Shown here one piece after another: positions 1 to 31,327 of a DNA stretch of 64,000 nucleotides (positions are counted from its first letter, which is position 1; each line of letters starts with the position of its first letter). A program made the position numbers and the translations under genes. Source of the DNA: an uncultured Sphingomonadales bacterium (GTDB lineage: Bacteria > Pseudomonadota > Alphaproteobacteria > Sphingomonadales > Sphingomonadaceae); contig CAIPUN010000083.1 in the NCBI GenBank assembly GCA_903868245.1, forward strand, positions 3,385 through 67,384. Direction: 5' to 3'. A model generated the notes under the pieces. That model ran no database searches. It was not told where the DNA came from and worked only from the letters and a program-made list of their open reading frames with translations.

Positions 1-445
1 CATAAGTTGCGCTGCGTTCGGCAGGGTTTGACCCTGGCATGGCACCATCCCAGATGGTGCGGCCTTCAACCATGTCCATGATGTAAAACATCGAACCGAT
101 GACGCTGTCGTCGGTGCACAAGCCAAATGGTTTGGCGACCGGGAAACCAGTCGGATACAGGCCAGCAATCACCTTATATTCGCGGTCAACCGCGTGCGCG
201 CTGGGGAGTAAGACGCCAAAGGGTTTTCGCCGCAGGACGTAGGAACCGCTTTTCGCGTTCAAGCGGTAGGTCGGGTTTGACTGCCCACCAGCAAATTTCA
301 GAACCTCGACCGGGCCTACAAAGCCTTCAACATTTTCGGCCATCCATTGCGCGAGCTTATCGGCATCCAATATGTCCGCACCGCTTGGCGCAACGGTGCC
401 GGTAAAGGCTGTCTGCGCGTCAATCGGGGTTTGCGGCTTGCTCAT
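1..445 (-). CDS. Phosphotransferase (APH/ACAD10 kinase-like) family protein; 3' part lies outside the window
   Basis: Manual translation from ATG at 445: MSKPQTP...FAGGQSNPTY...YVLRRKP...LLPSAHAVDREY...FYIMDMVEG, typical of APH-like/ACAD10 kinase domains. ATGA overlap with the upstream ADH stop. Confidence 0.88.
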   Translation of the reverse strand, partial: MSKPQTPIDAQTAFTGTVAPSGADILDADKLAQWMAENVEGFVGPVEVLKFAGGQSNPTYRLNAKSGSYVLRRKPFGVLLPSAHAVDREYKVIAGLYPTGFPVAKPFGLCTDDSVIGSMFYIMDMVEGRTIWDGAMPGSNPAERSATY

Positions 446-21703: not shown

Positions 21704-22228
21704 ATGAGCAAAAATGACACCCGCCGCGCGGAGATTATCCAGCGATTGACCGATTATGTCCTGGCAGAGGGATTGTCGGCGGCAAGCCTGCGTCCCTTGG
21801 CTAAGGCGGCGGGAACGAGTGACCGGATGCTGCTCTATTATTTTGCCGACAAGCGCGCGATTATCACCGCGGTGCTAGAGCAAATCTCGGCGCGGCTGGT
21901 GGGGCTGATGTCCGAACAAACCGCGTCTGCGCCGTTGCCGTTGGAAGATCTGCGCCGCCAACTATCAGAGCTTTTGTTTGAGGACGCGTTATGGCCGTAT
22001 ATGCGCATCTGGCTTCAGGTGGCGGCGCGTGCGGCGATGGGCGATGCCTTTTATCGCGGCGTAGGCGAACAGATAGGCCGTGGTTTTCTGGACTGGGGCA
22101 AAATGCAGTTGAAGGCAGACAGCGCGGCGCAGCTGGAGGTTGATGCCGCGCGCCTGCTGGTCAGCATGGAAGGCATGCTGTTCCTGAAAAGCATTGGCCT
22201 GGATGACGTAAACGCCAAGGCACTTTAA
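21704..22228 (+). CDS. TetR/AcrR family regulator
   Basis: [28 protein letters not shown]; start taken at MSKNDT. Confidence 0.9.
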
Positions 22229-22575
22229 CGCCGGTTTTCGGCCCTTGCTTTGCCCAACAATATAGCTGCGCTGTCGCCTTTATTTCGGATGCTTTCGACG
22301 AGCAAATAGGCTGCCAAAAACGGTGCGCCCAAGTTGAAGGCTGCAAATCCCAAGAGCAGCCCGCCCACCGAAAATGCATGCCGCCACGCGACCCAAACGC
22401 CGGACATGATGAGGAAGCCCAAAAAGTCGATATTAAACTGCCCGTTCCATGTCATGTCCGCAATGTCGCCGAAAAATATCGGATATAGTCCCATGCCATG
22501 ATTCATGATGACGATGGCAGTGTAGACACCGATAACGGCAATGATGGTCACGAGAAATATACGGAACAAAGTCAT
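22225..22575 (-). CDS. Small membrane protein of unknown function
   Basis: 116 aa, 3-4 TM segments, WNGQFNIDF motif; RBS AGGAG; stop overlaps the TetR stop. Confidence 0.82.
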   Translation of the reverse strand: MTLFRIFLVTIIAVIGVYTAIVIMNHGMGLYPIFFGDIADMTWNGQFNIDFLGFLIMSGVWVAWRHAFSVGGLLLGFAAFNLGAPFLAAYLLVESIRNKGDSAAILLGKARAENRR

Positions 22576-22612
22576 GGTTTGGCTCCTGAAACTAGAGCAT
22601 CACCATAACAAA

Positions 22613-22628
22613 TGTAGCGAGTGCTACA
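22613..22628. promoter_or_regulatory. Palindromic operator, probably for the neighbouring TetR
   Basis: TGTAGC-GAGT-GCTACA, about 40 bp upstream of the 22225-22575 gene. Confidence 0.65.
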
Positions 22629-22667
22629 AGTGCTGTTTTATATGCTGGCAAGATGCGGCCAACCATT

Positions 22668-22738
22668 CGTCATCCTGAACTTGTTTCGGGATAACGCACC
22701 GCCGTCGCCTGTCATCCTGAAACAAGTTCAGGATGATG
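22668..22738. repeat. CGTC-type REP doublet (REPIN), 71-bp class
   Basis: CGTCATCCTGAACTTGTTTCGGGAT, 21-nt spacer, ATCCTGAAACAAGTTCAGGATGATG. Confidence 0.9.
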
Positions 22739-22814
22739 ATGGGTTTTTGGAATGACGATGGGCTTTTGGGATGACGATGATTTTTGGGATAACGAAGTCG
22801 GTTCAGGGTAACAG
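22739..22814 (-). repeat. Tandem array of four truncated REP ends (about 19-bp period)
   Basis: GACG-like ends at 22738, 22757, 22776, 22794 and 22813; unit on the minus strand is about ATCGTCATCCCAAAAGCCC. Confidence 0.85.
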
Positions 22815-22831
22815 ATTGCGGCGGTTCATGC

Positions 22832-23620
22832 TTAGGAAGTGCGCATGTCGTCCGTCAGCTCCACCCAAGTCGGGGCATGATCGCTCGCCTTTTCGCGACC
22901 ACGATGGTCCTTGTCGATGCCACAACTGATGAGGCGGTCGGCGACGGCGGGGCTTAACAACAGATGGTCGATGCGAAAGCCATGGTCGCGTTGCCATGCG
23001 CCCGCCTGAAAGTCCCAAAAGGTCCACACTCCGCCTTGCGGATAATGCGTGGCGAGCGCGTCGGTCCAGCCTTGGCCAAGCAAGGCGCGATAGGCGGCTA
23101 TGCTTTCGGGCTGACGCAGCGCATCATCCAACATCGCACCAGGGGCCCAGATATCATGTGCGTGCGGGATGACATTATAGTCACCTGCCAACACCGCAGG
23201 AATTTCTGCTGCCAGCAGCTCCGCCGCGCGGGCATATAACCGCTGCATCCATGCGAGCTTATAGTCGAATTTGGGGCCGGGTTGCGGGTTGCCATTGGGC
23301 AAATAAATGCTCGCGACGCGGATGCCGAAAACATCAGCCTCCAAATAACGCGCATGTTCGTCCAACGGATCGCCGGGCAAAGTGCGCTGCGTCTCTACAG
23401 GCTGTGCGCCTTTGGCGAGAATGGCGACGCCATTGAACGATTTTTGTCCATGCCAGATCGCGCCATAGCCAGCGCGTTCAAACTCCGCGATGGGAAAGCC
23501 CTCATCTTGGGACTTTACCTCTTGTAAACAGGCAATGTCGGGCTGGGTTTCCTCCAACCATTCCAGCAATCGGGGCAGGCGCGCCTTGACGCCATTAATA
23601 TTGTAAGTCGCAATACGCAT
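22832..23620 (-). CDS. xth: Exodeoxyribonuclease III
   Basis: ATYNING, CLQEVK, YLPNGN, GDYN, RIDHLL, SDHAP. Confidence 0.96.
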   Translation of the reverse strand: MRIATYNINGVKARLPRLLEWLEETQPDIACLQEVKSQDEGFPIAEFERAGYGAIWHGQKSFNGVAILAKGAQPVETQRTLPGDPLDEHARYLEADVFGIRVASIYLPNGNPQPGPKFDYKLAWMQRLYARAAELLAAEIPAVLAGDYNVIPHAHDIWAPGAMLDDALRQPESIAAYRALLGQGWTDALATHYPQGGVWTFWDFQAGAWQRDHGFRIDHLLLSPAVADRLISCGIDKDHRGREKASDHAPTWVELTDDMRTS

Positions 23621-23672
23621 GAGGCCTCGTAGCGCAATACGCCTTCACGCTGAACCTACTTTCTCACCCTTA

Positions 23673-23761
23673 CGTCATGCTGAACTTGTTTCAGCATCCA
23701 TTGTGCAGCAAAGACCTGAGCTGATCGGCGAAATGGAACCTGAAACGAATTCAGGGTGACG
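23673..23761. repeat. CGTC-type REPIN, 89-bp class
   Basis: CGTCATGCTGAACTTGTTTCAGCAT, 39-nt spacer, AACCTGAAACGAATTCAGGGTGACG. Confidence 0.88.
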
Positions 23762-23801
23762 TTGTGTGTGGAGTTAACTGAGGCGTTAATGGGCCACGCC
23801 C

Positions 23802-24152
23802 CTAAACTGAAAAGCTGGATCCGCAGCCGCAACCCGCTTGCGCCTGCGGGTTTGTAACCTTGAAGCTTTTGCCGCCAAGCGATTCTACGAAGTCTACGGC
23901 GGACCCGCGCACGAGATCAAGGCTCATGGGGTCGACAACCAACGACGCGCCGTCGCCCTGCGCTTGAATGTCGTCGGCCTCAATCGAGTCGGCCAAGCCA
24001 AAGCGATATTGAAAGCCCGAACAGCCGCCGCCTTCAACCGACAAGCGCAGCACAGGGTCTTTGCCCAATTTGGTTGCGATTTCGGCCACGCGCCGCGCCG
24101 CGTTGGGCGTCATGGAAATATCTGTCATGGAGATGACTTCAGTGTCTGTCAT
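23802..24152 (-). CDS. erpA: Fe-S cluster insertion protein ErpA (HesB/IscA family)
   Basis: VEGGGCSGFQY and NPQAQAGCGCGSSF. Start 24152 (leaderless pattern) or 24128. Confidence 0.93.
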   Translation of the reverse strand: MTDTEVISMTDISMTPNAARRVAEIATKLGKDPVLRLSVEGGGCSGFQYRFGLADSIEADDIQAQGDGASLVVDPMSLDLVRGSAVDFVESLGGKSFKVTNPQAQAGCGCGSSFSV

Positions 24153-24180
24153 GAAGCTTATGTAGGCCATGCCACAGATA

Positions 24181-24216
24181 AAGAAAAGGGGCGGCAAAGT
24201 AACCTATGCCAGCCCC
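24181..24216 (-). terminator. Intrinsic terminator of the M23 gene
   Basis: Minus strand GGGGCTGGCA-loop-TGCCGCCCC-TTTTCTT. Confidence 0.65.
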
Positions 24217-24260
24217 CAAGATTACACCCTCTCCCAAAGGTGATGCGTTAGCCTGTCCGC

Positions 24261-24992
24261 TTACTCACCTTCAGCAGGACCGCCAATGGCATTGCTATCA
24301 GCAGATTTTGCAGCAAGCAAGAATTTTGCGCCGGTCGGGTCTGATTGCTGTGGGGCGAGGAAAGCAATTGGATTGATCGCTTCACCAGCGATGCGGACTT
24401 CATAATGCAGATGGCTTCCGGTGGAGCGGCCAGTTGAACCCATATAGCCCAAAATGTCGCCCTTGCGGATACGCTGGCCGGGCGCCACGTTCATCGCTGA
24501 CAAATGGCCATAACGTGTCTGCACCGCGTTGCCGTGGTTGATTTCAACAAATTTGCCATAGCCGCCAACCCATTCGGCACGACCAACAGTGCCATCTGCG
24601 GTTGCAAAAATGGGTGTGCCCACGGGACCCGGAATATCGATGCCCTTGTGATTGCGGCTTGCACCCCGTGTGGGTGCATTACGATAGCCAAACCCGCTGG
24701 AGAATTTCATAGTCTCAACAGGGTTGATCGACGGAACGGCAACGGCGACCTTATTAACGGCGCCGTTGATGCGGCCCCAGCTGTCGTTCAACGCGCGAAA
24801 TTCAGGGTCCGAAACGCCCAGAGCGGTTTGGTTTGCCTTCAAATCTTCGGGTGAAATACGGAAAGTGTCAGAAGAAGCGGCAGCTGAGTTTGCAACAGCA
24901 GGCGTAGCGACTGCAACAGCAACCAATATGCCGATCGCAGAGGCAGCTTTCAGGATCAGTGATTGGCACGAAGCCAAAGCGCTGGATACCAT
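24261..24992 (-). CDS. M23 family metallopeptidase (exported)
   Basis: Signal-like N-terminus; HKGID, YGHL and GSHLHYE motifs. Start approximate. Confidence 0.92.
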   Translation of the reverse strand: MVSSALASCQSLILKAASAIGILVAVAVATPAVANSAAASSDTFRISPEDLKANQTALGVSDPEFRALNDSWGRINGAVNKVAVAVPSINPVETMKFSSGFGYRNAPTRGASRNHKGIDIPGPVGTPIFATADGTVGRAEWVGGYGKFVEINHGNAVQTRYGHLSAMNVAPGQRIRKGDILGYMGSTGRSTGSHLHYEVRIAGEAINPIAFLAPQQSDPTGAKFLLAAKSADSNAIGGPAEGE

Positions 24993-25307
24993 GTGTGTCG
25001 TTACCTTGTTGTTGCGACCCGCACCGATTTTGGCGCAGCCCCGAAAATTGGACCAAGGCAGATAATCTGCCCACTTCTTATGAAAAGGGTGGTGTCCGAT
25101 GGCCCAAATGAATGCAAGTTCTGTGGGGTGAACGCGGGACAAGCCGCCGCTCAAACGCGTTGAGTCGTTGAATTGAGGCTATAGCGGCGGGTAAAATGAC
25201 GGTTTACCGATGTTTTTTAACGCGGCCGACGCCATATTGTTCCGGTCGTTCGGAAGGTGATGAACGGGATTCGCTTCGAATGACGGAGAGGCGTTTAGGG
25301 GCGGACC

Positions 25308-25766
25308 CTATAAAGCCTTAGCCGCAGCCAAAACTTCCGCTGCATGGTCTTTGACCTTCACTTTGCGCCAAATTTGCGCCACTTTGCCGTCCTTGCCGAT
25401 CAGAAAAGTCGACCGGTCAATGCCCATATAAAGTTTGCCATACATCGATTTTTCGACCCAGGCGCCCATTTGCTCGGTGGCATCACTCGATTCGTCGGAC
25501 AGCAAATGGACGTTCAGCGCATATTTCGCCGCGAATTTGGCGAGCTTGGCGGGCTTGTCTTTCGACATGCCGTAAACTGGGCACTTCAACGCTGCAAATT
25601 CAGCCGCCAATTCGGTGAAATCCTTCGCCTCATTGGTGCAGCCTGGCGTGTCCGCTTTGGGGTAGAAATAGAGTATGAACGGACCGGGAAGCGCCGCCAG
25701 ATTGACCGCATTGCCTGCGCTATCGGCGACGGTTACGTCGGGCAGCGTGTCGTTAACATCGGTCAT
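25308..25766 (-). CDS. bcp: Peroxiredoxin Bcp/PrxQ
   Basis: YFYPKADTPGCTNEAKDF, GIDRSTFLI; RBS AAAGGA. Confidence 0.94.
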   Translation of the reverse strand: MTDVNDTLPDVTVADSAGNAVNLAALPGPFILYFYPKADTPGCTNEAKDFTELAAEFAALKCPVYGMSKDKPAKLAKFAAKYALNVHLLSDESSDATEQMGAWVEKSMYGKLYMGIDRSTFLIGKDGKVAQIWRKVKVKDHAAEVLAAAKAL

Positions 25767-25779
25767 GTGTCGTTCCTTT

Positions 25780-29603
<3,824 letters not shown>

Positions 29604-29660
29604 TTAGGGGGGTTATGCGCTGGAGAAAACCAACTTTTCTGAACGCCCAATCACCGGGGA

Positions 29661-29754
29661 CATCGTCTCGTCAAAAACCGAAGCCCATCGTCATCCAAAA
29701 CCAAACCTATCGTCATCCTGAACCAAACCTATCGTCACCCGAAGCCAAACCCAT
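29661..29754 (+). repeat. Tandem array of four truncated REP ends (22-bp period)
   Basis: ATCGTC at 29662, 29687, 29709, 29731 and 29753; units CATCGTCATCCAAAACCAAACC / TATCGTCATCCTGAACCAAACC / TATCGTCACCCGAAGCCAAACC. Confidence 0.88.
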
Positions 29755-29825
29755 CGTCATCCTGAACTTGTTTCAGGATAACAAACCAATGTTGCCTGTT
29801 ATCCTGAAACAAGTTCAGGATGACG
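29755..29825. repeat. CGTC-type REPIN, 71-bp class
   Basis: CGTCATCCTGAACTTGTTTCAGGAT, 21-nt spacer, ATCCTGAAACAAGTTCAGGATGACG (perfect 25-bp inverted repeat). Confidence 0.92.
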
Positions 29826-29899
29826 AGGCGGAGAGGATTTACACATCATTGACGCAAATTGCCCTTTCAACCGCCGCCGCACCAGCCCATATAGACGCC

Positions 29900-31327
29900 A
29901 TGACTTATACAGACCCACGCTCTTATCTTTATCAACCTGGCCTGCTGGACCCCGACGCGGCGCAGCGCATTACGCGGGACGCTTTGAAAGCCTGCGATGA
30001 TGGCGAGCTCTACCTGCAATATAGCGCGACAGAGAGCTTTGGCTTTGACGATGGTCGCCTCAAAATGGCGGATTATTCGACGGGTTCGGGCTTTGGCCTG
30101 CGCGGTGTGTCGGGTGAGATGACCGGGTTCAGCCACGCCAATGACATGAGCGAGGCCGCGATCCGCCGTGCGGGGGAGACGTTGAAGCTGCTTGATCCCG
30201 CAAAGGATAAACCCGCGCCGCCACCGCGCCAGAACAACCGGCATTTATATACAGACGGCAATCCGCTTGAACTCGTGCCTTTCGCGCAAAAGGTTGCGTT
30301 GTGCCAACAGATCGACGCCGCAGCGCGGGCGCGTGACCCGCGCGTCGCACAAGTCAGCGTCAGCCTGTCGGGCAGTTGGAGCGTCGTTGAAATCGTCCGC
30401 GCCGATGGCTTTGTCGCCACCGACGTTCGGCCATTGGTCCGCCTGAATGTCTCCATCGTCGCGCAAGATGGCGATCGCCGCGAAACTGGAAATCATGGTT
30501 TTGGCGGGCGTTATCTGTACGACAAATTATTTGAAGAGCAGGAATGGGAACATGCCATTGACGTCGCCTTGGCGCAGGCGTTGACCAATTTGCGTTCGGT
30601 CGCGGCGCCCGCCGGCGAAATGACCGTGTTGCTTGGCCCCGGCTGGCCCGGCGTCTTGCTGCATGAGGCCGTTGGCCATGGCTTGGAAGGCGATTTCAAC
30701 CGCAAGGGCAGCAGTGCCTTTTCTGGAAAAATCGGGCAGCGCGTGGCCGCCCCCGGCGTTACTGTTGTCGATGATGGGACGATGCAAAATCGGCGCGGAT
30801 CCTTGTCGATAGATGATGAAGGCACGCCGACTCAGGAGAATGTCTTGATCGAAGACGGCATATTGCGCGCCTATATGCAGGACCGCATGAACGCCCGCCT
30901 GATGGGCGTGGAGCCCACGGGTAATGGCCGCCGCGAAAGTTTCGCCCATGCACCGATGCCACGCATGACCAACACCTTCATGCGCAGCGGCAATGATGAT
31001 CCTGCCGAACTGTTGAGCCGCGTCAAAAACGGCATCTTCGCCAAAAGCTTCGGCGGCGGGCAGGTTGACATTGTGTCGGGCAAATTCGTGTTTAGCTGCA
31101 CCGAGGCCTATTTGGTTAAGAACGGCAAGCTGGGCGACCCGATCAAGGGCGCGACCCTGATCGGCGATGGCCCGACGGCGCTTAACAAGGTCATTGGTCT
31201 TGGCAATGACATGGCGCTGGATGAAGGCGTTGGCGTCTGCGGCAAGGCGGGGCAAAGTGTGCCGGCAGGCGTCGGGCAACCCACAACTTTGGTGAGCGCG
31301 CTGACGGTGGGTGGAACAGCTGGTTGA
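29900..31327 (+). CDS. tldD: Metalloprotease TldD
   Basis: HEAVGHGLEGDFNRKG, GNGRRES...PMPRMTNT, CGKAGQSVPAGVGQPT. Start taken at MTYTDP, not at the REP-spanning ATG 29615. Confidence 0.95.
   Translation: MTYTDPRSYLYQPGLLDPDAAQRITRDALKACDDGELYLQYSATESFGFDDGRLKMADYSTGSGFGLRGVSGEMTGFSHANDMSEAAIRRAGETLKLLDPAKDKPAPPPRQNNRHLYTDGNPLELVPFAQKVALCQQIDAAARARDPRVAQVSVSLSGSWSVVEIVRADGFVATDVRPLVRLNVSIVAQDGDRRETGNHGFGGRYLYDKLFEEQEWEHAIDVALAQALTNLRSVAAPAGEMTVLLGPGWPGVLLHEAVGHGLEGDFNRKGSSAFSGKIGQRVAAPGVTVVDDGTMQNRRGSLSIDDEGTPTQENVLIEDGILRAYMQDRMNARLMGVEPTGNGRRESFAHAPMPRMTNTFMRSGNDDPAELLSRVKNGIFAKSFGGGQVDIVSGKFVFSCTEAYLVKNGKLGDPIKGATLIGDGPTALNKVIGLGNDMALDEGVGVCGKAGQSVPAGVGQPTTLVSALTVGGTAG

What the first reader, a model, noticed from the sequence alone, without database searches (positions are those of the whole stretch)
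22739..22814. Polarised tandem array of REP 'feet' (19-bp period) attached to one end of a REPIN
Outside the right REP, its terminal CGTC tag plus the first stem bases and about 10 nt of flank recur four more times (periods 19, 19, 18, 19). The units cannot form the REP hairpin, and the distal units look more diverged from their neighbours. This resembles iterative duplication at the hairpin base, such as repeated nick/strand-displacement or insertion-excision scars by the REP-specific nuclease, rather than a classical BIME of whole REPs (inference). I know of no description of this architecture, but could not search.
Basis: partly seen in the sequence, partly recalled or inferred. Interest (0 to 1): 0.65.

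Follow-up and report, generated by a model that had tools for sequence, protein, structure and literature searches.

The report
One-sided half-hairpin repeat arrays beside REPs
A small hairpin repeat of a known but unexplained bacterial family (CGTC-tagged REP) carries on its tagged outer end a tandem run of half-copies; this one-sided pattern is common across the family, varies between strains, and I found no description of it, so it may be a clue to how these repeats, which have no known enzyme, are processed.

Summary
Right of a 71-nt REP doublet (window 22668-22738), the motif [3' stem arm + GACG tag + 7-11 nt spacer] recurs. Tags lie at 22735, 22754, 22773, 22791 and 22810 (periods 19, 19, 18, 19), with a fifth decayed unit beyond.

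The array is not a chance match or a one-off. In this genome 22 of 114 REPs carry at least one chained foot (null 6.75), and 10 carry two or more (null 0.2). All sit on the tag side.

The same arrays occur in 11 of 31 congeners. They also occur beside the identical REP in Patescibacteria, Bacteroidota and other phyla.

Units cannot fold and are too short to be decayed whole REPs. They are absent from the empty sites of sister species. At two other loci they gain or lose exact units between strains (19-bp and 25-bp steps).

No RAYT (Y1 transposase) exists in this genome or in any REP-rich congener.

The REP is a known kind (CGTC-2 type, Di Nocera 2013). I did not find the half-REP foot array described in the literature I searched.

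Best reading: a locally generated, mostly neutral minisatellite seeded at the hairpin and changed by slippage or unequal exchange. An unknown tag-reading enzyme remains possible (about 0.3).

The parts
22668..22695 (-). Left REP of the doublet: CGTC tag 22668-22671, arm ATCCTGAA 22672-22679, loop CTTGT, arm TTCGGGAT 22685-22692, tail AAC. There is no clear foot array on its outer (left) side.
   Evidence: the doublet folds at -23.6 kcal/mol, z = -8.3
22696..22710 (.). Inner spacer of the REP doublet (head-to-head dimer with the tags outside).
   Evidence: the same doublet geometry recurs genome-wide
22711..22738 (+). Right REP: tail GTC, arm ATCCTGAA 22714-22721, loop ACAAG, arm TTCAGGAT 22727-22734, degenerate tag GATG 22735-22738.
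22739..22813 (+). Foot array of four tag-to-tag units (19, 19, 18, 19 bp). Each unit is a C-poor spacer plus a partial 3' arm plus a GACG-like tag (GACG, GACG, AACG, AACA). It is unstructured on both strands.
22814..22849 (+). Decayed distal unit(s) (TTCATGCTTAGG at 22825-22836) and the end of the block that is absent from congeners. Positions 22832-22849 now supply the stop codon and the last five codons of the Exo_endo_phos gene (...DDMRTS* against ...AD* in relatives).
22641..22849 (.). Whole block (doublet, feet and biased flanks; about 209 bp) present here but absent from the orthologous site of seven congeners, where the intergenic spacer is about 55 bp.
29664..29754 (-). Second, independent foot array in the window (period about 22, 3-4 units) on the tagged outer side of another doublet.
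   Evidence: ortholog comparison
29755..29825 (.). Second REP doublet (71 nt): CGTC at 29755-29758 and GACG at 29822-29825.

Best explanation
The feature is a polar minisatellite made of tag-proximal half-REPs. Each unit is the 3' stem arm, the GACG tag and a 7-12 nt C-poor spacer (12 + 7..12 = 19-25 bp). The array is attached to the tagged outer end of a CGTC-type REP doublet. It is one instance of a family-wide behaviour of this REP.

Shown:
- The units are local duplicates, with a spacer specific to each locus.
- They are absent from empty sites of sister species.
- They are always on the tag side.
- They cannot fold.
- Arrays with identical neighbouring units gain and lose exact units between strains. 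One such exchange involved the REP's own arm and a foot.
- Arrays decay by point mutation, and can outlive the REP as orphan feet.

Inferred:
- The first duplication is seeded by an event tied to the hairpin. This would be a break, nick or template switch at the loop/3'-arm boundary, rejoined 7-12 nt beyond the tag.
- After that, ordinary slipped-strand mispairing or unequal sister exchange expands and contracts the array, mostly at the REP-proximal end where units are most alike.
- The arrays look like neutral by-products. I saw no bias to gene orientation or replication strand.

The array in the finding is an old, frozen example. Its units are about 82% alike and it is invariant in 10 contigs.
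For: Anatomy and periods. Lack of structure.

Enrichment and polarity: 10 of 133 TRF arrays abut REPs, all on a tag-bearing side. 22/114 REPs have feet against 6.75 under the null, and 10 against 0.2 for two or more feet.

Locus-specific spacers. Flank pairs are no more alike than composition predicts, 9 observed against 14 expected.

Empty sites:
- Locus 1 against seven congeners.
- The type-2 doublet near window 23673 against G009.
- The C74 site against G009, G008 and G046.

Strain-level copy-number change:
- C74:37819 has REP +3, +2 (two compositions) and +1 feet, in exact 19-bp steps.
- In L072 the foot variant TTCCGGAT sits in the REP's own arm.
- C8:8972-9043 loses one 25-bp unit in L266.

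Between species:
- At locus 2, G000 has about 4 feet on one doublet.
- G044 has two tandem doublets with 1-2 and 2-3 feet.
- G002 has an orphan three-foot array without a REP.

Generality:
- Foot dimers occur in 11/31 congeners, with 0 hits for the reversed-pattern control.
- 21-bp arrays lie beside the identical REP in a Falkowbacteria MAG, an alphaproteobacterial MAG and Lutibacter.

No sign of selection for function: outer neighbour gene 13 tail: 7 head with feet against 54: 32 without; GC-skew strand 7: 4 against 35: 33.
Against: - No plain slippage model explains the first duplication. It needs a 19-25 nt back-slip on 1-3 nt of microhomology, yet it has happened at roughly 15-20% of REPs and in several phyla.
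- Unit starts are very regular: TTCAGG, the first base of the 3' arm, usually preceded by G as in the loop.
- Spacers are strongly C-depleted. In 11 young arrays I hand-tallied about 6% C from the printed units. The median distance from the tag to the first C is 8.5 nt.
- The analogous half-REP dimer is rare in the one E. coli chromosome tested: 1 per 155 tagged REPs.

These points suggest a family-specific, directional process rather than generic hairpin instability.
Confidence: 0.6

Rival explanations
1. The feet are in-vivo footprints of an unidentified enzyme that reads the CGTC tag and hairpin from one side. It would cut at the loop/3'-arm junction and again 7-12 nt outside the tag, and rejoin the ends across sister strands or through a small single-stranded circle. 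This is the two-site cleavage and strand-transfer scheme proposed for TnpA_REP and tandem BIME amplification. Each event adds or removes one [arm + tag + spacer] unit next to the REP.
For: - Polarity is strict, on the tag side only.
- Unit boundaries are fixed at the arm start, and the spacer length is narrow at 7-12 nt.
- The spacer is C-depleted, as expected if a C-containing cut motif cannot lie inside it.
- The same unit design appears beside the identical REP in distant phyla.
- The REP-proximal units are the most alike, and all variable units in the C74 alleles are proximal.
- The analogous structure is rare in the E. coli chromosome tested.
- The biochemical precedent, with cleavage at two kinds of site and strand transfer that builds tandem copies, is in PMC3333891.
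Against: - No candidate gene. Y1_Tnp is absent from this genome and from all REP-rich congeners, and present only in five REP-poor ones.
- Genes flanked by REPs are housekeeping.
- The first C after the tag has no single context: GGC 19, TTC 18, GAC 12, AGC 11 of 85. No cut motif emerges.
- Di Nocera et al. also found no dedicated transposase for CGTC REPs.
- PF01797 aligns only partly with divergent TnpA_Y1 classes, so absence is not proof.
Confidence: 0.3
2. The arrays are functional. They could be iteron-like tandem binding sites for a protein that recognises GGATGACG at about two helical turns. Alternatively they could be an RNA element, for example a C-rich, G-poor rut-like tract ahead of the REPIN hairpin in transcripts that read into it.
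For: - The part nearest the tag (GG-R-TGACG) looks, by eye, better kept in feet than the first four arm bases (units listed; not quantified).
- Periods cluster at 19-22 bp.
- At locus 1 and at C74 the C-rich strand lies in the 3' UTR of a gene reading into the doublet.
- The array is structure-free on both strands, as a rut site would be.
Against: - Only about 20% of REPs have feet.
- Unit number varies between strains and species, and distal units decay.
- There is no orientation bias toward gene 3' ends compared with REPs without feet.
- Locus 2 lies between divergent genes, so nothing reads into it.
- Within one species the whole feet + REPIN block is replaced by an unrelated element.
Confidence: 0.07
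3. The array is the decayed remnant of complete REPs once arranged head to tail (a BIME-like or HT cluster).
For: Whole REPs and REPINs do occur in tandem in this family (G044 locus 2; L122 downstream cluster). Such clusters are described in PMC3733652 and PMC3116915.
Against: - The period of 19-25 bp is shorter than a REP with its tag and tail (at least 28 nt).
- Young arrays with near-identical units (C74, L050, L115, L122) contain no trace of a 5' arm or loop.
- The pattern used (N7-16 between tags) excludes a whole REP between tags.
Confidence: 0.02

Closest known systems
CGTC-tagged REPs, family CGTC-2 (Di Nocera, De Gregorio and Rocco 2013, BMC Genomics 14:522; PMC3733652)
   Same: Terminal CGTC tag, 8-bp stem starting with AT, 5-nt loop, short tail (AAC or CCA), mainly head-to-head dimers with the tags outside, high copy number, mostly in Alphaproteobacteria but also in other phyla, and no dedicated transposase.
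   Different: [quoted passage not shown] It states that flanking DNA was not studied in detail. Half-REP (arm + tag + spacer) arrays, their polarity and their copy-number variation are not described.
BIMEs of E. coli and tandem REPIN/REP clusters of Pseudomonas fluorescens SBW25 (Bertels and Rainey 2011, PMC3116915)
   Same: Higher-order tandem arrangements of REP material in intergenic space. Some are over-represented and variable between strains.
   Different: Those are built of complete REPs or REPINs (periods of about 70-190 bp) and go with RAYT genes. Here the unit is less than one REP, cannot fold, lies on one side only, and no RAYT is present. The analogous half-REP dimer occurs once per 155 tagged REPs in one E. 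coli chromosome.
TnpA_REP (RAYT) cleavage and strand-transfer model for BIME amplification (Ton-Hoang et al. 2012, PMC3333891), and IS200/IS605 ends
   Same: A hairpin with a 4-nt tag at its foot is read in an oriented way. Cuts at two different sites near the hairpin, followed by strand transfer, can build tandem copies. IS608 cleavage sites lie 10-19 nt from the hairpin foot (my recollection of the IS608 literature, not checked here), a distance similar to the foot period.
   Different: The tag is CGTC rather than GTAG. No Y1 HUH gene was found. The duplicated segment starts inside the hairpin at the loop/arm junction. No enzyme activity is known for this family.
Iterons next to the origin hairpin of HUH-Rep replicons (circovirus hexamer repeats, geminivirus iterons)
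   Same: Short direct repeats on one side of a stem-loop, partly repeating the stem arm (from general knowledge).
   Different: Those are replication origins of small replicons with a cognate Rep. Here there are dozens of chromosomal sites, variable and decaying units, and no Rep.
Bacterial minisatellites / VNTRs
   Same: Head-to-tail units of 19-25 bp that change by whole units between strains.
   Different: Ordinary VNTRs are not anchored to, or derived from, one half of a dispersed hairpin repeat, and do not recur with the same design at many loci and in many phyla.

Membership tests
CGTC-tagged REP superfamily (CGTC-2 type) | Unpaired CGTC (or TGTC/CCTC) tetranucleotide at one end of the palindrome | tested here: met
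   3' flank positions 1-4 after the core are G 107/114, A 114/114, C 110/114 and G 106/114.
CGTC-tagged REP superfamily (CGTC-2 type) | Stem of 8 bp beginning with complementary A-T residues, and a loop of 5 nt | tested here: met
   ATCCTGAA / ACAAG / TTCAGGAT; family description.
CGTC-tagged REP superfamily (CGTC-2 type) | High copy number, mainly head-to-head dimers | tested here: met
   114 hits in 1.97 Mb, most as inverted pairs with the tags outside and two spacer classes.
REPIN-RAYT system | A cognate RAYT (Y1 HUH transposase) gene, usually flanked by the REPs | tested here: not met
   PF01797 gives no match in G000 (95% complete). In the genus it is found only in five REP-poor genomes. 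Genes flanked by REPs are housekeeping. Caveat: PF01797 covers divergent classes only partly.
REPIN-RAYT system | Two inverted REPs that fold into one long hairpin | tested here: met
   -23.6 kcal/mol, z = -8.3 for 22668-22738.
BIME / tandem whole-REP cluster | Units are complete REPs (each able to fold), alternating or head to tail | tested here: not met
   The period of 18-19 bp is shorter than a REP. The array has MFE 0 on both strands. No 5' arm or loop is present in the units.
Minisatellite (VNTR) | Head-to-tail units that change in whole-unit steps between strains | tested here: met
   Met for the family: C74 in 19-bp steps with four alleles, and C8 with a 25-bp step. The array of the finding itself is invariant in 10 contigs.
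Iteron-type protein-binding array | Specific binding of a cognate protein to each unit | not testable with these tools
   No candidate protein. The only supporting observation is better-kept GG-R-TGACG (judged by eye) and a period of about 2 helical turns.

The most novel reading that the evidence does not exclude
The half-REP feet are the in-vivo footprint of a still unknown, widely distributed DNA-processing activity. It would recognise the CGTC tag and hairpin directionally, and cut or rejoin at the loop/3'-arm junction and about 7-12 nt outside the tag. This activity, which is not a Y1 RAYT, would be what spreads the near-identical CGTC REP across phyla. Array phase and length would then map its cleavage points and record its activity.
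Probability: 0.3. Interest if true: 0.8.

Novelty: new variant of a known kind. Interest (0 to 1): 0.55.

Why it matters
CGTC-tagged REPs are abundant in Alphaproteobacteria and occur in several other phyla. Since 2013 they have been described as lacking any dedicated transposase, so how they arise and spread is open.

A strictly tag-sided array with regular phase and varying copy number gives that question a handle. It defines two positions, the loop/arm junction and 7-12 nt beyond the tag, where DNA is repeatedly broken and rejoined or mis-replicated. Young arrays such as C74:37819 in this genome provide natural reporters whose gain and loss rates can be measured in mutants.

If the arrays are only slippage products, they still matter in practice. 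They are fast-changing strain markers. They break short-read assemblies, since several contigs end at them. They also add DNA to gene ends: here five codons were added to an Exo_endo_phos gene.

Tried and rejected
- **Rfam.** A scan of 22000-30500 gave only spurious microRNA hits on the doublet.
- **RAYT.** Not found in the genome or in REP-rich congeners.
- **Genes bracketed by REPs.** These are LeuB, RF1, BioB, GroES, Map, AccD, TrpA and the like, recognised by eye from the translations and not scanned against Pfam. None is a candidate nuclease.
- **Link to transcription or replication direction.** None found, though the ORF calling was rough and the skew was measured per contig.
- **'First C = cut motif'.** The contexts are mixed.
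- **Flanks co-mobilised with the REP.** Flank pairs are no more similar than composition predicts. The ATGGGTTT spacer shared by loci 1 and 2 may therefore be chance within a biased composition.
- **Class-wide pattern scan (401 genomes).** Most single hits look like chance matches in coding sequence, so it says little beyond the genus.
- **FokI-like reading of GGATG in the foot.** Dropped because GGGTG-type and GCATG-type REPs have feet too.
- **Chi, G-quadruplex and telomere-like readings of the G-rich spacers.** Considered only; no test was available.
- **Literature.** String searches for the REP core found no paper. Searches for slippage or tandem duplication at REPs found nothing relevant.
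- **Sigma-70 promoters and terminators.** No promoter-like site in 22500-22900. The only terminator-like hits are the right REP followed by the T-run of the first spacer on the + strand (no gene is read on that strand here), and the TGTAGC..GCTACA palindrome.

Full report
**1. What is at the coordinates**

The intergenic space between a 116-aa ORF (22225-22575, minus strand) and an Exo_endo_phos gene (22832-23620, minus strand) holds a REP doublet.
- The left REP is CGTC-ATCCTGAA-CTTGT-TTCGGGAT-AAC at 22668-22695.
- A 15-nt spacer follows.
- The right REP is GTC-ATCCTGAA-ACAAG-TTCAGGAT-GATG at 22711-22738.

From 22739 the motif [spacer + partial 3' arm + tag] recurs. My chained walk finds a fifth decayed unit (TTCATGCTTAGG, 22825-22836). 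TRF reports the array with score 88.

As single-stranded DNA the doublet folds at -23.6 kcal/mol (z = -8.3). The array has an MFE of 0 on both strands and is less structured than its shuffles. So the units indeed cannot form the hairpin.

The 256-bp spacer is identical in ten independent metagenome and MAG contigs that encode the identical neighbouring protein. It is therefore not an assembly artefact.

**2. It is a family-wide behaviour, not a one-off**

The assembly (1.97 Mb, 202 contigs, 55% GC, 95% complete) has 114 hits to the REP core. Most are head-to-head doublets of two or three sub-types.

Enrichment and side:
- Of 133 TRF arrays in the genome, ten touch a REP. I estimate about 0.5 expected from the REP footprint.
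- All ten lie on a side that carries a tag.
- The one apparent exception, at C22:38736, belongs to a symmetric singlet REP with a tag on both sides.

A chained search for copies of each REP's own arm + tag 12-mer (at most 4 mismatches, step 14-28) gives the following:

| Measure | Observed | Random starts (null) |
|---|---|---|
| REPs with at least one foot | 22 of 114 | 6.75 |
| REPs with two or more feet | 10 | 0.2 |

Periods run from 18 to 25 bp. A second array (period about 22) lies in the same window at 29664-29754, on the outer side of another doublet.

Spacers differ from locus to locus. Flank pairs are no more alike than column composition predicts: 9 pairs against 14 expected. Each array was therefore made where it lies.

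**3. The flank is compositionally odd**

After GACG, position +1 is A in 65% of REPs. Positions 6-16 hold only 4-13% C, against 27% in the genome. The first C comes at a median of 8.5 nt. In eleven young arrays, including those from other phyla, I hand-tallied about 6% C in the spacers from the printed units. No single sequence context marks the first C.

**4. Comparison with relatives: empty sites, births and decay**

*Locus 1.* In seven congeners (93-96% protein identity) the orthologous spacer is about 55 bp. The whole block at 22641-22849 (doublet, feet and biased flanks) is missing. In the window genome the block replaced the stop codon, so the Exo_endo_phos protein ends ...DDMRTS* instead of ...AD*. 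Another congener has an independent doublet 3 nt away with, at most, decayed feet.

*Type-2 doublet near 23673.* A second filled/empty pair, against G009, again shows 31 and 52 nt of extra, biased flank containing decayed feet.

*Photolyase/SDR site (contig C74).* Sister species differ here:
- Some have an empty site.
- Some have other REP types.
- One (G002) has a three-foot array with no REP left.

*Locus 2.* G044 has two tandem doublets with 1-2 and 2-3 feet, where the window genome has one doublet with about 4. Within the window's own species, a second allele carries an unrelated palindromic element of about 140 nt instead of feet + doublet.

**5. Copy number changes between strains**

At C74:37819 the units are 94% alike. 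Contigs encoding the identical SDR protein show four alleles:
- REP + 3 feet.
- REP + 2 feet, in two different compositions.
- REP + 1 foot.

The steps are exactly 19 bp. In the shortest allele the foot variant TTCCGGAT has replaced the REP's own 3' arm. This is what unequal exchange or slippage between arm and foot would give. All variation is REP-proximal, and the distal unit is constant.

At C8:8972-9043 one contig lacks one 25-bp unit.

Arrays with diverged units (locus 1, C143) are invariant.

Across ten arrays with at least 3 feet, REP-proximal neighbours are 0.91 identical and distal neighbours 0.73 (Wilcoxon p = 0.004). The walk's stop rule biases this comparison, so I count the gradient as only partly shown.

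**6. Distribution**

Foot dimers (AGGRTGACG-N7-16-GGRTGACG, a spacing that excludes a whole REP) occur in 11 of 31 congeners. The reversed pattern gives none. Their number roughly follows REP abundance. One congener has five near-identical 21-bp units (L050).

The exact 25-mer ATCCTGAAACAAGTTCAGGATGACG is found in at least 120 contigs. These come from Sphingomonadaceae and also from:
- Bacteroidota,
- Treponema,
- Patescibacteria,
- a Heliobacteriaceae MAG,
- a Gastranaerophilaceae MAG,
- other groups.

Beside it the same design recurs:
- 21-bp units x4+ in a Falkowbacteria MAG,
- 21-bp units x6 in an alphaproteobacterial MAG,
- shorter runs in Lutibacter, Treponema and others.

A class-wide scan added little, because single hits there are mostly coding-sequence chance matches.

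As a control, one E. coli chromosome with 155 exact GTAG-tagged REP halves has a single analogous half-REP dimer. This is one genome and a slightly different pattern stringency.

**7. What it is, and what is known**

The REP fits the CGTC-tagged superfamily of Di Nocera et al. 2013. It has the CGTC tag, an 8-bp stem starting with AT, a 5-nt loop, a short tail and head-to-head dimers. Those authors state that the family lacks a dedicated transposase.

That paper and Bertels and Rainey 2011 describe tandem whole REPs or REPINs with flanks. Di Nocera et al. say flanking DNA was not examined in detail. I found no description of half-REP arrays in these papers, in Quentin et al. 2018 or in Ton-Hoang et al. 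2012. Text searches also found none.

Earlier notes of this scan report similar one-sided half-copy arrays in other genomes. They are unchecked AI notes. My results agree with them but were obtained independently.

**8. Mechanism**

*Shown.* The units are duplicated locally. They are found only on the tag side. They arrive with or after the doublet. They change by whole units, they exchange with the REP's own arm, and they decay.

*Not shown.* How the first duplication arises. Plain slippage needs a 19-25 nt back-slip on 1-3 nt of microhomology, usually G|TT, as at the loop/arm junction. Yet the event is frequent, regular in phase and seen across phyla, and it was rare in the E. coli chromosome tested.

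Two models fit the boundaries:
- (a) A nick or stall at the loop/3'-arm junction, with strand displacement and religation of the displaced flap, or a template switch. This uses host enzymes only.
- (b) Two-site cleavage and strand transfer by an enzyme that reads the tag, as proposed for TnpA_REP.

Against (b):
- There is no Y1 gene in this genome or in any REP-rich congener.
- No gene is bracketed by REPs other than housekeeping ones.
- No cut motif emerges.

Against a function:
- Only about 20% of REPs carry feet.
- Numbers vary and units decay.
- There is no bias to gene orientation or skew strand.
- Locus 2 sits between divergent genes.

I therefore put about 0.6 on a locally generated, essentially neutral minisatellite seeded at the hairpin and driven by slippage or unequal exchange. 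I put about 0.3 on an unknown tag-reading enzyme, and under 0.1 on function. Decay of whole tandem REPs is excluded by unit length and by the young arrays.

**9. Verdict**

The REP is a known kind. The polar half-REP array is, as far as I could search, an undescribed variant of REP organisation, general to this family. It is useful as a lead to the unsolved question of how CGTC REPs are processed.

Limits:
- The copy-number alleles rest on short-read assemblies.

Noticed in passing
L080-L159 (genome-contig hits to the 25-mer): The exact 25-nt REP core + tag ATCCTGAAACAAGTTCAGGATGACG occurs in at least 120 contigs from very distant phyla: Sphingomonadaceae, Pedobacter, Roseivirga, Rikenellaceae, Treponema, Patescibacteria, Heliobacteriaceae, Gastranaerophilaceae and Sulfurovaceae. 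In the Rikenellaceae MAG it sits inside a longer conserved element. Such identity across phyla is unexplained.
   Followed up: partly
window 29594-29900 versus L218, L220, L222, L224, L227: Within the same species (identical Tgt protein, near-identical flanks) a second allele has an unrelated palindromic element of about 140 nt (GTCGAAGGG...CCCTTCGAC arms) exactly where this genome has feet + REP doublet. The site is a swap hot spot. Other congeners carry still other inserts there.
   Followed up: partly
window 22832-22849: The REP-associated insertion removed the ancestral stop codon of the Exo_endo_phos gene. The protein gained five residues (DMRTS) encoded by the decayed end of the foot block.
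   Followed up: yes
It looks like a second small element that targets the REP.
   Followed up: no
G000 C22:38779-38837: A symmetric singlet REP with a tag and one foot on both sides forms a 59-nt perfect palindrome (GTCACCCCTCATAACGTCACCCTGAA ACAAG TTCAGGGTGACGTTATGAGGGGTGAC). It looks like a doublet collapsed by exchange between its two REPs, and it is also present in G020.
   Followed up: no
L235 (G002), between the photolyase and SDR genes: An orphan three-foot array (CAGGGTGACG ... AAGTGACG ... AGAGTGACG, steps about 22-23) starts 6 nt after the photolyase stop codon with no REP hairpin left. Feet can therefore outlive the REP.
   Followed up: partly
G043:C1:818552-818581; L153 pos ~600; G231:C45:6-38: Next to some REPs the tag region itself forms a microsatellite of 7-8 bp units (GGATGAC x4; GGGATGAC x3; GGGGTGAC x3). 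This is a shorter-period version of the same tag-side amplification.
   Followed up: no
window 22613-22628 and orthologous sites in congeners (L012-L023): A conserved palindrome TGTAGCACTCGCTACA lies just upstream of the 116-aa ORF in all congeners checked. It looks like an operator or a small terminator. Both REP insertions at this locus landed immediately beside it.
   Followed up: no
G000, 3' flanks of all 114 REPs: The 15 nt beyond the tag are strongly C-depleted and G/T-rich even at REPs without recognisable feet. The cause is unknown: decayed feet, target preference or the way the flank is made.
   Followed up: partly
L264-L267 and other short contigs: Several metagenome contigs end inside or right next to the REP doublet or foot arrays, and one (L267) continues into a different doublet. 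These repeats therefore break or mis-join short-read assemblies.
   Followed up: no
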